Positions 29,101 to 32,100 of a stretch of DNA of 64,000 nt are shown here, piece by piece. The stretch is from Escherichia coli. Lineage in GTDB: Bacteria > Pseudomonadota > Gammaproteobacteria > Enterobacterales > Enterobacteriaceae. The first letter of the stretch is position 1, and each line of letters opens with the position of its first letter. The stretch lies in NCBI RefSeq assembly GCF_011045215.1, contig NZ_CP049201.1; one strand, given 5' to 3'. Made by a program: the position numbers.

Positions 29101-32100
29101 CGATGTTGACTAAGAACGCTTTATATTCCGGCGTTTGCGAGTTTGCATCACCGACATTCGGCGTCAGAGTGTTAGCGATATAACCTTTACGCGCGACACC
29201 CTCAAAGCCCCAGTGGATTGGAATACCCACCGTTTCAACCTGCTGACCATTTACATTCAGCGGTTTCAGACGACGCGTTACCACAGCCACCGCGCGGATA
29301 AAGCCACGCTTGCTTGAGACAGTGACACGATCGCCATTATTAATGCCTTTCGCCGCCGCCAGCGTTTCGCTGATTTCCACAAACTGTTCCGGCTGAGCAA
29401 TTGCGTTGAGCAATGCGTGCTTGGTCCAGGTGTGGAAGTGCTCGGTCAGACGATAGGTCGTACCCACATACGGGAACTGCTCTTTTTTACCCATCCGCAG
29501 CGCGTCTTGTTCATACAGACGAACAACCGGGTTAGACACCACGTTCGGATGCAGCGGGTTAGTGCCCAGCGGCGTTTCAATCGGCTCGTAGTGTTCCGGG
29601 AACGGACCTTCCGCCATTTTGTTGATGGCAAACAGGCGTCCCATCCCTTCCGGCTGCATGATAAACGGCCCGGTTGGCGTACCCGGTGCGGCATTGCCGA
29701 AGTCAGGAATATCGTTACCCGTCCACTTGCTGCCGTTCCACTGGATCAGCATCCGTTTCGGATCCCACGGTTTACCGTTGATATCCGCCGAAGCACGGTT
29801 GTACAGCACGCGACGGTTGAGCGGCCACGCCCAGGCCCATCCCAGCGTATTCCCCAGACCGGACGGGTCGGAGTTATCGCGGTTAGCCATCTGGTTGCCC
29901 TGCTCTGTCCAGCTACCGGTGTAGATCCAGCAAGAAGATGCGGTTGTACCGTCATCACGCAGATGCGCAAAGCTACTCAGCAACTGACCTTTCTTCGCAA
30001 TCAGCACGCCATTTGCGTCATAGAGATCTTCCAGCGCATAGCCGTTGTTCTCTTTTGCCACTTCGTCAGATTGCGGTTCGTGCGGCTGCTTGTAGTTCCA
30101 GCTCATCTTCATCAGCGGTTCTACGCCTTTACCACCTTCGGCCTGGTACAGCTCGCGCAGATGATGGTAGATACCCGCCAGAATTTCGCCGTCGTTACGC
30201 GCTTCGCCCGGCGCGTCCTGACCTTTCCAGTGCCACTGCAACCAGCGACCGGAGTTAGCGATAGAACCATCTTCTTCGGCAAAGCAGGTCGAAGGCAGAC
30301 GGAATACTTCAGTCTGAATAGACGCCGGATCGACATCGTTCGACTCGCCGTGGTTCTGCCAGAAGGTAGAGGTTTCAGTCACCAGCGGATCGATAACCAC
30401 CATGTACTTCAGTTTGCTCAGGCAGCTCACCACTTTGTTTTTATCCGGGAAGGACGCAACCGGGTTAAAGCCCTGGCAGAAATAACCGGTGACTTTGCCT
30501 TCGTCCATCATGTTGAAATACTTGATGACGTCGTAGGTCTGGTCCCACTTCGGCAGCCAGTCATAGCCCCAGTTGTTCTCTTTCTGCGCGGCATCGCCAT
30601 AGAAAGATTTCATCAGGCTAACGAAGAACTTCGGATAGTTGCTCCAGTAGTTCACCTGATCAGCCAGCGTCGCTTTCGGCGTGTTCGCTTCCAGATACGA
30701 CTGCAAATCAACCTGTTTTTCTGACGGCAGCGTCAGATAACCTGGCAGGCTGGTAGAGAGCAGACCTAAGTCAGTCAGACCCTGAATGTTGGAGTGACCA
30801 CGCAATGCATTCACGCCGCCACCGGCCATACCCATGTTACCGAGCAGCAACTGGATCATCGCCATAGTACGGATGTTCTGCGCACCCACGGTGTGCTGCG
30901 TCCAGCCCAGCGCGTACAGGAAGGTGGTTGTGCGATCCGGTGCGCTGGTGGAGGCCAGCACTTCACACACTTTCAGGAAGTCAGCTTTTGGCGTACCACA
31001 GATGTTTTCAACAACGTCCGGCGTGTAGCGGGAAACGTGCGCTTTCAGCAGGTTCCACACACAGCGCGGATGAGTCAGTGTTTCATCGCGTTTCGCATAG
31101 CCGTTTTCATCGAACTGATAGTTCCAGGACGATTTATCGTATTGCCGTTTTTCAGCGTCGTAGCCGCTGAACAGACCGTCTTCGAAAGCAAAATCATCAC
31201 GCACCAGCAGGCTGGCGTTGGTGTAATGCTTAACGTATTCGGCGTTGATTTTGTCGTTTTCGATCAGGTAGCGCAAAACGCCAGACAGGAACGTAATGTC
31301 CGTACCGGAACGAATAGGTGCGTAAATATCCGCCACAGAAGCGGTACGCGTAAAACGGGGATCGACAACGATCAAGGTTGCATCGTTGTTGTTTTTCGCT
31401 TCCATCGCCCAGCGGAAACCGACGGGATGCGCTTCAGCAGCGTTACCGCCCATTACCATTACGACGTTAGCGTTTTTGATATCCACCCAGTGGTTGGTCA
31501 TCGCACCGCGACCAAATGTTGGAGCAAGACTTGCTACCGTTGGTCCGTGTCAGACGCGCGCCTGGTTGTCTACCGCCAGCATCCCGAGGGAGCGGGCAAA
31601 TTTCTGGGTCAGCATCCCGGTTTCGTTGCTGGCACCGGAAGCACACAGCATACCGGTAGAAAGCCAACGGTTTACCGTTACGCCCTGCTCGTTCTTTTCA
31701 ATAAAGTTAGCGTCACGGTCAGCTTTCATCAGCTTCGCAATACGGGAGAATGCTTCTTCCCAGCTAATGCGCTGCCATTTGTCAGAACCTGGCGCACGAT
31801 ATTCCGGGTAGCGCAGACGGTTTTCGCTGTTGACGTAATCCAGCAAACCGGCCCCTTTCGGGCACAGCGCACCACGGCTTACCGGATGATCCGGATCACC
31901 TTCAATGTGATAAATCGCTTCTCTGGCGTTTTTCGCGCCATCACCCAGGCTATACATCAATAGCCCGCAACCTACGGAACAGTATGTGCAGGTGTTACGG
32001 ATCTCTTTAGCGCGTAATAATTTGTAGTTTCGCGCCTGAGCCAGTGCTTGCTTCGGGGCAAAGCCCAATGCCGCTACTGTTGTTCCAGCCATACCGCCCG

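What the first reader, a model, noticed from the sequence alone, without database searches (positions are those of the whole stretch)
31505..31552. fdnG is one gene read through an in-frame UGA (selenocysteine), not a pseudogene
The ORF track splits fdnG at a single TGA at 31550-31552 (minus strand). The flanking residues are contiguous in one frame and match the known formate dehydrogenase-N selenocysteine context, and the ~45 nt downstream should form the SECIS hairpin.
Basis: established knowledge. Interest (0 to 1): 0.3.

Follow-up and report, generated by a model that had tools for sequence, protein, structure and literature searches.

The report
fdnG selenocysteine codon and SECIS hairpin
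The apparent stop codon that splits this E. coli formate dehydrogenase-N gene is the textbook UGA read as selenocysteine with the help of an RNA hairpin just after it, so the gene is intact and the finding is correct but already known.

Summary
Confirmed, and ordinary. On the minus strand, the frame 32137..29090 has 1016 codons and one internal stop: TGA at 31552..31550, codon 196.

- **Gene identity.** The two halves match the FDH-N alpha model TIGR01553 at profile positions 1-194 and 196-1009. The DNA is 99.7% identical to RefSeq fdnG, which is annotated as one 3048-nt CDS. fdnH and fdnI follow. In PDB 1KQF, residue 196 (selenocysteine, printed X) aligns to the TGA.
- **SECIS.** The 59 nt at 31555..31497 match Rfam SECIS_3 (RF01989) at 84.3 bits (gathering score 63). 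This is the only Rfam family above threshold in the window. The hairpin has a bulged U17 and G23/U24 in the apical loop, 11 nt after the UGA.
- **Comparative support.** In 68 distinct homologous sites, the upper helix is 97.7% paired. Four of its seven pairs show compensatory changes.
- **Caveat.** Folding energy alone is not distinctive (-14.6 kcal/mol, z = -0.67).

Selenocysteine at codon 196 of FdnG has been shown by mass spectrometry (PMC3636253).

One side observation is unexplained. In Enterobacterales, a 71-nt block (31555..31485) is frozen at synonymous sites. It is identical in fdnG and fdoG and runs about 20 nt past the hairpin.

The parts
29090..32137 (-). fdnG, formate dehydrogenase-N alpha subunit: one 1015-residue selenoprotein (1016 codons including the terminal TAA)
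   Evidence: Translation has a single internal stop at codon 196. TIGR01553 scores 1316.8 bits against a cutoff of 814.2. The DNA is 99.7% identical to RefSeq fdnG annotated as one CDS. The 142 residues around the Sec site that were searched match PDB 1KQF chain A residues 154-295 with one real difference (D295/N295) besides the Cys placeholder at Sec196.
31550..31552 (-). In-frame UGA, codon 196, decoded as selenocysteine (the Mo ligand of the enzyme)
   Evidence: Read directly from the sequence. It aligns to X196 of 1KQF_A. It falls in the gap between profile positions 194 and 196 of TIGR01553. TGA is kept in all 103 FdnG-type sites recovered, although the search pattern required it. Sec196 was shown by mass spectrometry (PMC3636253).
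31497..31555 (-). Bacterial SECIS element of the fdnG/fdoG type: the full Rfam SECIS_3 match including the UGA
   Evidence: cmscan RF01989: 84.3 bits, gathering score 63, E = 2.2e-19, model positions 1-59 of 59. It is the only family above gathering score in the whole 64-kb window.
31505..31550 (-). Whole hairpin as folded for this sequence (nt 3-48 from the U of UGA), comprising a lower stem, an internal loop and an upper stem-loop
   Evidence: MFE is -14.6 kcal/mol. The lower stem has no covariation support and its register is ambiguous: E. coli prefers a register shifted by 1 nt relative to the Rfam consensus.
31521..31538 (-). Upper stem-loop (nt 15-32), the inferred SelB-binding core: G15-G16, bulged U17 (31536), helix A18-A22/U26-U30, loop bases G23 (31530) and U24 (31529)
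   Evidence: Structure. The helix is 97.7% paired in 68 distinct sequences, with 4 of 7 pairs showing compensatory changes at wobble sites. RNAalifold finds the same helix independently. U24 is the third base of a Ser/Gly codon yet is invariant. The determinants U17, G23, U24 and the 11-nt spacing are from PMC8659212.
31485..31555 (-). 71-nt block that is nucleotide-identical between this fdnG and K-12 fdoG and nearly invariant across Enterobacterales. It extends about 20 nt beyond the 3' foot of the hairpin.
   Evidence: It is the longest identical run between the paralogs (71 nt, next longest 36), although the genes are 74.9% identical overall. In 22 enterobacterial sites, all 18 amino-acid-invariant degenerate codons at +1..+21 keep one codon in at least 90% of loci, against 6 of 58 elsewhere.
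28193..29077 (-). fdnH, FDH-N beta (iron-sulfur) subunit, next gene in the operon
   Evidence: TIGR01582: 482.1 bits, cutoff 334.7. RefSeq annotation of the collinear locus.
27547..28200 (-). fdnI, FDH-N gamma (cytochrome b556) subunit
   Evidence: NF007558 (FDH-N gamma) scores 486.5 bits, cutoff 339. The FDH-O-type model NF007924 scores 268.1 bits, below its cutoff of 341. RefSeq annotation.
32138..32368 (-). fdnG 5' region between fdnG and the divergent yddG. It holds a Shine-Dalgarno GAGG at 32147..32144 and a TTGAT-N4-CGCAA motif at 32215..32202 that resembles an Fnr half-site pair.
   Evidence: Read directly from the sequence. Regulatory roles are inferred from general knowledge of the fdnG promoter and were not tested here.

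Best explanation
Window 32137..29090 (minus strand) is the intact fdnG gene of an Escherichia coli chromosome. It encodes the catalytic subunit of the nitrate-inducible, periplasm-facing formate dehydrogenase-N. Codon 196 is UGA and is translated as selenocysteine, not as stop. The mRNA immediately 3' of the UGA folds into a bacterial SECIS hairpin. Its upper stem-loop lies 11 nt after the UGA and has a bulged U17 and G23/U24 in the apical loop. This stem-loop is bound by the specialised elongation factor SelB carrying GTP and Sec-tRNA(Sec). As the ribosome melts the lower stem and brings UGA into the A site, the tethered SelB complex delivers Sec-tRNA(Sec). Release factor 2 terminates only on ribosomes where that delivery fails. 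The resulting Sec196 is the selenium ligand of the molybdenum cofactor. Shown here: the in-frame UGA, the gene identity and operon, the SECIS homology, the conserved structural determinants, and covariation of the upper helix. Inferred from the literature on the same or identical E. coli sequences: SelB binding, the tethering mechanism, and actual Sec insertion.
For: - There is a single in-frame TGA at codon 196 of a 1016-codon frame.
- TIGR01553 aligns the two pieces to profile positions 1-194 and 196-1009. The C-terminal piece alone scores 1316.8 bits against a cutoff of 814.2.
- The DNA is 99.7% identical to RefSeq fdnG annotated as one CDS, with fdnH and fdnI downstream and yddG upstream.
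- A 76-nt query around the site is at least 99% identical in 5369 of 5433 matching E. coli records, with a median of two places per genome; the listed best places are annotated fdnG, and the second place per genome is inferred to be fdoG.
- PDB 1KQF_A has X (Sec) at residue 196, aligned to the TGA.
- Rfam SECIS_3 scores 84.3 bits against a gathering score of 63, E = 2e-19. It is the only Rfam hit above threshold in 64 kb.
- The MFE hairpin spans nt 3-48 with U17 bulged and G23/U24 in the loop, the same absolute positions as in fdhF.
- In 68 distinct FdnG-type sites from many phyla, the upper helix is 97.7% paired. Four of seven pairs have compensatory changes (A-U, G-C, C-G), mostly at codon third positions. 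Pairing drops to 27-49% when partners are slid by 1-3 columns.
- RNAalifold recovers the same helix.
- Thr codon +4 is ACG in 100 of 101 sites, and Ser codon +7 is AGU in 68 of 68. This fixes G15 and U24 at synonymous sites.
- Literature: Sec196 was seen by mass spectrometry in FdnG and FdoG, and translation stops at codon 196 without selC (PMC3636253). SECIS determinants are from PMC8659212. The SelB tethering and RF2 model is from PMC4513850.
Against: - The hairpin's folding energy is not better than that of shuffled sequence (z = -0.67; 42 of 200 shuffles are as good).
- The lower stem shows no covariation. In E. coli it fits the Rfam consensus register only with A.C and A.G mismatches.
- The trans-acting machinery (selA, selB, selC, selD) is not in the window. 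No tRNA gene was found there. Whether this strain can decode the UGA therefore cannot be seen from these 64 kb.
- No expression or selenium-labelling data exist for this exact strain.
Confidence: 0.97

Rival explanations
1. fdnG is a pseudogene inactivated by a nonsense mutation, or the TGA is a sequencing error for TGC/TGG.
For: A mechanical ORF call breaks the gene at this codon. Nothing else supports this reading.
Against: The same TGA and surrounding 76 nt occur at 99% identity or more in 5369 of 5433 matching E. coli records. The TGA is also present in FdnG-type genes of many other genera. Both halves remain full-length matches to the family model with no further stops. RefSeq does not flag the gene as a pseudogene. 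A curated SECIS model matches directly after the TGA.
Confidence: 0.01
2. There are two separate genes: a 195-residue Tat-signal/4Fe-4S protein ending at the TGA, and an 803-residue protein starting at ATG 31501.
For: The ORF list shows 31550..32137 (195 aa) and 29090..31501 (803 aa) as separate ORFs.
Against: The 16 codons between the TGA and the internal ATG are in frame, highly conserved, and part of the family profile. ATG 31501 is the conserved Met of GRGAMTNHW, not a start. The crystal-structure sequence is a single 1015-residue chain spanning both parts.
Confidence: 0.01
3. The UGA is read through without selenocysteine, by near-cognate Trp/Cys tRNA or a suppressor, and the hairpin is only a pausing element.
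For: Sequence alone cannot show which amino acid is inserted. Some organisms have Cys homologues of formate dehydrogenase.
Against: Mass spectrometry of E. coli FdnG and FdoG found Sec and never Cys at position 196, and translation terminates there in a selC mutant (PMC3636253). The conserved U17, G23 and U24 are the SelB contact bases, not generic stem features.
Confidence: 0.01

Closest known systems
E. coli K-12 fdnG (b1474) UGA196 plus SECIS; FDH-N structure PDB 1KQF/1KQG
   Same: Same gene, same codon and the same SECIS sequence. The operon (fdnGHI) and the neighbours (yddG, yddM, adhP, maeA) are the same. Protein length is 1015 residues.
   Different: Only strain-level polymorphism. There are 10 nucleotide differences from the closest RefSeq copy and one amino-acid difference, D295 instead of N295. 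None lies in the SECIS.
E. coli fdoG (formate dehydrogenase-O alpha) SECIS
   Same: The UGA is at codon 196 and the following 60 nt are identical. A 71-nt block (nt -3..+68) is identical between the paralogs. Both belong to Rfam SECIS_3.
   Different: The genes are only 74.9% identical in nucleotides and 76.9% in amino acids overall, and sit at a different locus (fdoGHI-fdhE, next to fdhD). The gamma subunit in the window matches the FDH-N model, not the FDH-O model.
E. coli fdhF (formate dehydrogenase-H) SECIS, the reference bacterial SECIS (Rfam SECIS_2, RF01988)
   Same: UGA-CAC-GG... context. G15-G16, bulged U17, G23-U24-C25 in the apical loop, and the upper stem-loop starting 11 nt after the UGA. 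The SelB-dependent mechanism is presumably the same.
   Different: The apical part differs: fdhF has a 4-bp helix with a GGUC loop, while fdnG has 5 bp (A22-U26 closing) with a GUC loop. The lower stem sequence differs. The window scores only 28.8 bits against SECIS_2, whose gathering score is 70. In enterobacterial genomes the fdhF lower stem and tail vary at wobble sites, whereas in fdnG/fdoG they do not.
Periplasmic Sec-containing formate dehydrogenases of Desulfovibrio (e.g. PDB 1H0H, 6SDR)
   Same: Homologous catalytic subunits with Sec at the aligned position and the conserved ...QAR(V/I)-U-H(G/S)PTV... context.
   Different: About 50% identity in the region. The apical SECIS sequence differs in the two Desulfovibrionaceae loci recovered, Candidatus Desulfovibrio gallistercoris and Mailhella sp. 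(...ACCGGCUCUGGCAG...; L031, L074).

Membership tests
Bacterial SECIS, fdnG/fdoG type (Rfam RF01989 SECIS_3) | Covariance-model score at or above the curated gathering score | tested here: met
   84.3 bits against 63, E = 2.2e-19, full-length match to model positions 1-59. Confirmed on the whole window.
Bacterial SECIS, fdnG/fdoG type (Rfam RF01989 SECIS_3) | In-frame UGA immediately 5' of, or at the foot of, the hairpin inside a coding sequence | tested here: met
   The TGA at 31552..31550 is codon 196. Hairpin pairs begin at nt 3.
Bacterial SECIS, fdnG/fdoG type (Rfam RF01989 SECIS_3) | Upper stem-loop beginning 11 nt after the UGA, with bulged U17 and G23/U24 in the apical loop (the SelB contact bases) | tested here: met
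   In the MFE and the CM alignment, G15-G16 pair with C31-C32, U17 is unpaired, and G23 U24 C25 form the loop. The criteria are from PMC8659212. U24 is invariant and G23 is at least 90% conserved in 68 sequences.
Bacterial SECIS, fdnG/fdoG type (Rfam RF01989 SECIS_3) | Evolutionary support for the helix (compensatory base changes) | tested here: met
   Upper helix: 97.7% of cells paired, 4 of 7 pairs with changes on both sides. Sliding the partners drops pairing to 27-49%. RNAalifold agrees. Lower helix: no compensatory support and an ambiguous register.
Bacterial SECIS, fdnG/fdoG type (Rfam RF01989 SECIS_3) | Thermodynamic stability beyond composition | tested here: not met
   -14.6 kcal/mol against a shuffle mean of -12.66, z = -0.67. 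This is not a defining criterion of the family, but it limits any argument from 'stable hairpin' alone.
Bacterial SECIS, fdnG/fdoG type (Rfam RF01989 SECIS_3) | Binding by SelB and selC/selA/selD-dependent insertion of selenocysteine | not testable with these tools
   The sel genes are not in the window; no tRNA gene was found. Published for E. coli FdnG, which has the identical SECIS (PMC3636253).
Formate dehydrogenase-N alpha subunit FdnG (NCBIfam TIGR01553; Mo-bisMGD oxidoreductase) | Whole-protein score above the curated cutoff, with contiguous coverage across the Sec position | tested here: met
   The C-terminal piece scores 1316.8 bits (cutoff 814.2) on profile positions 196-1009. The N-terminal piece scores 279.5 bits on profile positions 1-194.
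Formate dehydrogenase-N alpha subunit FdnG (NCBIfam TIGR01553; Mo-bisMGD oxidoreductase) | Twin-arginine signal and N-terminal 4Fe-4S cysteine motif | tested here: met
   The translation shows SRRQFFK at residues 4-10 and C50-x2-C53-x3-C57...C92. Cys50, Cys53 and Cys57 are named as cluster ligands in PMC3636253.
Formate dehydrogenase-N alpha subunit FdnG (NCBIfam TIGR01553; Mo-bisMGD oxidoreductase) | It is the N isoenzyme rather than the O isoenzyme: operon partners and chromosomal context | tested here: met
   The downstream gamma subunit passes NF007558 (FDH-N gamma, 486.5 against 339) and fails NF007924 (268.1 against 341). The DNA is 99.7% identical to annotated fdnG but 74.9% identical to K-12 fdoG. 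Synteny is yddG | fdnGHI | yddM-adhP-maeA.
Formate dehydrogenase-N alpha subunit FdnG (NCBIfam TIGR01553; Mo-bisMGD oxidoreductase) | Formate-oxidising activity with Sec196 as the Mo ligand | not testable with these tools
   Inferred from the match to the sequence of the solved E. coli enzyme 1KQF: the 142 residues around the Sec site that were searched differ only at D295/N295 and at the Cys placeholder used for Sec196.

The most novel reading that the evidence does not exclude
In Enterobacterales the RNA-level constraint on fdnG/fdoG is much wider than the canonical SelB-binding stem-loop. A 71-nt block (window 31555..31485, nt -3 to +68) has essentially no synonymous variation from Escherichia to Providencia and is identical in both paralogs. 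It includes the lower stem and about 20 nt beyond the hairpin. In contrast, Pseudomonas freezes only the upper-helix codons, Burkholderiales vary even those by compensation, and fdhF in the same enterobacterial genomes varies in its lower stem and tail. This could mark an additional, undescribed function of the extended element. Candidates are an extended fold that tunes recoding efficiency, protection against competing folds, or a binding site for another factor. Alternatively it could be a by-product of codon preference and limited sampling.
Probability: 0.2. Interest if true: 0.3.

Novelty: already known. Interest (0 to 1): 0.06.

Why it matters
For annotation it matters only in the routine sense. 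Gene callers that treat UGA as stop split or truncate fdnG, and the locus should be annotated as one selenoprotein CDS with a translation exception at codon 196. Biologically it restates a classic case of stop-codon recoding in one of the three E. coli selenoproteins. The only part that might reward further work is the side observation that enterobacterial fdnG/fdoG freeze 71 nt at synonymous sites, well beyond what SelB binding is known to need.

Tried and rejected
1. **Thermodynamic test of the hairpin.** z = -0.67, so stability alone cannot carry the claim. I relied on the covariance model and covariation instead.
2. **Rfam SECIS_2, the fdhF type.** 28.8 bits against a gathering score of 70. 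The element is not of the fdhF subtype.
3. **Lower-stem register.** I tested both the Rfam consensus register and the register shifted by 1 nt that the E. coli MFE prefers. Neither has compensatory support, so I make no claim about lower-stem pairing beyond 'it can pair'.
4. **Pseudogene, split-gene and sequencing-error readings.** All rejected on conservation and profile continuity.
5. **Gene conversion between fdnG and fdoG as the sole cause of the 71-nt identity.** Rejected as sufficient, because the block is also identical between distant genera whose flanks are 75-87% identical.
6. **Search for the Sec machinery in the window.** No tRNA genes were found, so this is uninformative.
7. **Other weak Rfam hits near the operon** (ES036/CssrF 30.7 bits, naRNA4 22.3 bits at 27339..27434). 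Both are below gathering score and were not pursued.
9. **Chance matches.** Six of the genome contigs pattern matches (L005, L036, L041, L078, L095, L107) were chance hits outside formate dehydrogenase genes and were excluded.
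Full report
**Observation**

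Reading the minus strand around the reported coordinates shows ...GCG CGC GTC TGA CAC GGA CCA ACG GTA GCA AGT CTT GCT CCA ACA TTT GGT CGC GGT GCG ATG..., with the TGA at 31552..31550. Translating 32137..29090 gives 1016 codons with one internal stop, at codon 196, and the terminal stop. The mechanical ORF list therefore breaks the gene into a 195-aa ORF (31550..32137) and an 803-aa ORF that starts at an internal ATG (29090..31501).

**Identity of the gene**

- **Family model.** The N-terminal piece aligns to positions 1-194 of NCBIfam TIGR01553 (formate dehydrogenase-N subunit alpha). The C-terminal piece aligns to positions 196-1009 at 1316.8 bits (cutoff 814.2). The one unmatched profile position is the codon occupied by TGA.
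- **Operon partners.** The next two genes match FDH beta (TIGR01582, 482 bits) and specifically the FDH-N gamma model (NF007558, 486.5 bits). The FDH-O-type gamma model stays below its cutoff.
- **Similarity to annotated E. coli.** The 3048 nt are 99.7% identical to E. coli RefSeq records in which the stretch is one CDS named fdnG and is not flagged as a pseudogene. It is flanked by yddG on one side and fdnH, fdnI, yddM, adhP and maeA on the other. 5425 of 5426 complete E. coli genomes carry it.
- **Differences from the closest copy.** The window differs by 10 nucleotides and one residue (D295 for N295), with nothing changed near the TGA.
- **Solved structure.** Against solved structures, the region matches PDB 1KQF/1KQG chain A (formate dehydrogenase, nitrate-inducible, major subunit; 1015 residues). 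The chain has X, i.e. selenocysteine, at residue 196 opposite the TGA.
- **Other motifs.** The translation also shows the twin-arginine signal (SRRQFFK) and the C50/C53/C57/C92 cluster motif.

**The RNA element**

A scan of 10 kb around the site against all Rfam families gives one strong hit: SECIS_3 (RF01989) at 31555..31497 on the minus strand. It scores 84.3 bits against a gathering score of 63, with E = 2e-19, over the full model length. In the whole 64-kb window it is the only family above its gathering score. The fdhF-type model SECIS_2 scores only 28.8 bits (gathering score 70).

Folding the 53 nt from the UGA gives a hairpin pairing nt 3-48. It has G15-G16/C31-C32, an unpaired U17, the helix A18-A22/U26-U30, and G23-U24-C25 at the tip. 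These are the same absolute positions as the bulged U17 and loop G23/U24 of the fdhF SECIS, folded here from K-12 for comparison. They also match the published requirements: a 17-nt upper stem-loop 11 nt from the UGA, with U17 and G23 as SelB contacts (PMC8659212).

The energy (-14.6 kcal/mol) is not better than that of shuffled sequence (z = -0.67). Stability by itself proves nothing here.

**Comparative evidence**

K-12 fdoG has its UGA at the same codon and an identical following 60 nt. The two paralogs are 74.9% identical in nucleotides overall. Their longest identical run, 71 nt, starts 3 nt before the UGA. The next longest run is 36 nt.

After six chance matches were removed, the rest were FdnG-type (HGPTV) or FdhF-type (HGPSV) sites.

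Sixty-eight distinct FdnG-type 59-mers align without gaps. On the Rfam structure:

- The upper helix is paired in 97.7% of cells.
- Four of its seven pairs show changes on both sides: 21:33 as G-C/A-U/C-G, 24:30 as A-U/C-G/G-C, 22:32 as G-C/U-G, and a single case at 18:35.
- Sliding the 3' partners by 1-3 columns drops pairing from 90% to 27-49%.
- RNAalifold, which does not know the Rfam structure, predicts the same apical helix with three compensatory pairs.

Most covarying positions are codon third positions. The wobble of Val +5 pairs with the wobble of Ala +9, and the wobble of Ala +6 pairs with the wobble of Leu +8. The constraint is therefore on the RNA, not the protein. Synonymous sites that carry the key bases are fixed: Thr +4 is ACG in 100 of 101 sites (G15) and Ser +7 is AGU in 68 of 68 (U24).

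The lower helix has no compensatory support. The E. coli sequence fits a register shifted by one nucleotide better than it fits the consensus register. This agrees with reports that unpairing the lower part only modestly reduces read-through.

**Mechanism**

- **Established for E. coli and applied here by identity of sequence.** SelB-GTP-Sec-tRNA(Sec) binds the upper SECIS stem-loop while it is still ahead of the ribosome. The lower stem melts as the UGA enters the A site. The tethered complex delivers Sec. RF2 terminates mainly on ribosomes where delivery failed (PMC4513850).
- **Direct published evidence for FdnG.** Mass spectrometry of E. coli FdnG and FdoG found Sec, and never Cys, at position 196. 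Translation stops at codon 196 in a selC mutant (PMC3636253).
- **Not shown here.** This particular strain's possession of functional sel genes is not established. The window holds no tRNA gene and the sel loci lie elsewhere in E. coli.

**Rivals**

A pseudogene, a sequencing error, two separate genes, or selenium-independent read-through are each contradicted by four lines of evidence. The TGA and its 76-nt context are conserved in 5369 of 5433 matching records at 99% identity or more. The family profile runs continuously across the site. The solved structure is a single chain. Published mass spectrometry shows Sec at this residue.

**Comparison with the known, and novelty**

This is E. coli fdnG with its known Sec196 codon and its known SECIS. 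All tested defining features of Rfam SECIS_3 and of TIGR01553 are met. Only biochemical function could not be tested. Interest is low.

**Side observation, unexplained**

I took 22 enterobacterial fdnG/fdoG sites from Escherichia, E. albertii, Citrobacter, Enterobacter, Klebsiella, Superficieibacter, Mangrovibacter, Yersinia, Photorhabdus and Providencia. They were chosen only by the upstream residues AVDNQARV.

- All 18 amino-acid-invariant degenerate codons from +1 to +21 keep one codon in at least 90% of loci.
- Elsewhere within -40..+70 codons the figure is 6 of 58, although the flanks average only 80% identity.
- The invariant run among the 17 loci with the commonest sequence is nt -2..+68. 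Those loci were selected for identity at nt 1-56. The run is the same block that is identical between fdnG and fdoG.
- At similar divergence, Pseudomonas/Stutzerimonas freeze only the upper-helix codons (5 of 6). Burkholderiales vary even those through compensation.
- fdhF sites in the same enterobacterial genomes vary at lower-stem and tail wobble positions.

Known SelB requirements explain the upper helix only. The frozen lower stem and the ~20-nt 3' tail are not explained. I found no discussion of this in the searchable literature, but that library is incomplete.

Noticed in passing
window 31485-31555 (-): A 71-nt block around the Sec codon is nucleotide-identical between this fdnG and K-12 fdoG, although the genes are 74.9% identical overall. 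It is nearly invariant at synonymous sites across 22 enterobacterial fdnG/fdoG loci. The block extends about 20 nt past the hairpin. Pseudomonas, Burkholderiales and enterobacterial fdhF do not show this wide freeze.
   Followed up: partly
window 31505-31550 (-), lower stem: The E. coli lower stem pairs best in a register shifted by 1 nt (with G44 bulged) relative to the Rfam SECIS_3 consensus. In the consensus register it has A.C and A.G mismatches. Neither register has covariation support in 68 sequences.
   Followed up: yes
window 31253-31255 (-), fdnG codon 295: The window encodes Asp295, where the closest RefSeq protein (WP_011310214.1) and the 1KQF crystal-structure sequence have Asn. 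This is the only amino-acid difference from the closest RefSeq copy.
   Followed up: no
window 27321-27434: Downstream of fdnI there is a terminator-like hairpin (27346..27321, minus strand) abutting the 3' end of the convergent yddM gene (about 3 nt of overlap). Next to it are sub-threshold Rfam hits to REP-derived RNAs: ES036/CssrF at 30.7 bits and naRNA4 at 22.3 bits. These probably reflect a REP element or a bidirectional terminator.
   Followed up: no
window 33509-37350 (+): Between yddG and narU the window carries an intact 366-aa porin gene, annotated ompC-like in the collinear strain PapM-32-1. Strain MLI023K1 has only a yddL porin pseudogene at this position. Leucine-rich-repeat protein genes follow, and these differ between strains.
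   Followed up: no
window ~48990-56800: This is a variable island with an ISAs1-family transposase remnant, an M35 peptidase, PAAR-like and DUF2169 genes, and a vgrG (tssI) that is uninterrupted here but split by IS600 in strain 2018-05-2CC. About 800 nt (53681-54478) have no match in that strain. Only 255 of 5426 E. coli genomes cover at least 80% of window 39001-64000.
   Followed up: partly
L031:4126-4184 and L074:756-814 (Candidatus Desulfovibrio gallistercoris and Mailhella sp. MAGs): These FdnG-type Sec sites keep the ARV-U-HGPTV context but have a different apical sequence (...GUACCGGCUCUGGCAG...), with C instead of G at position 23. This suggests a different SECIS subtype or SelB specificity in that lineage.
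   Followed up: no
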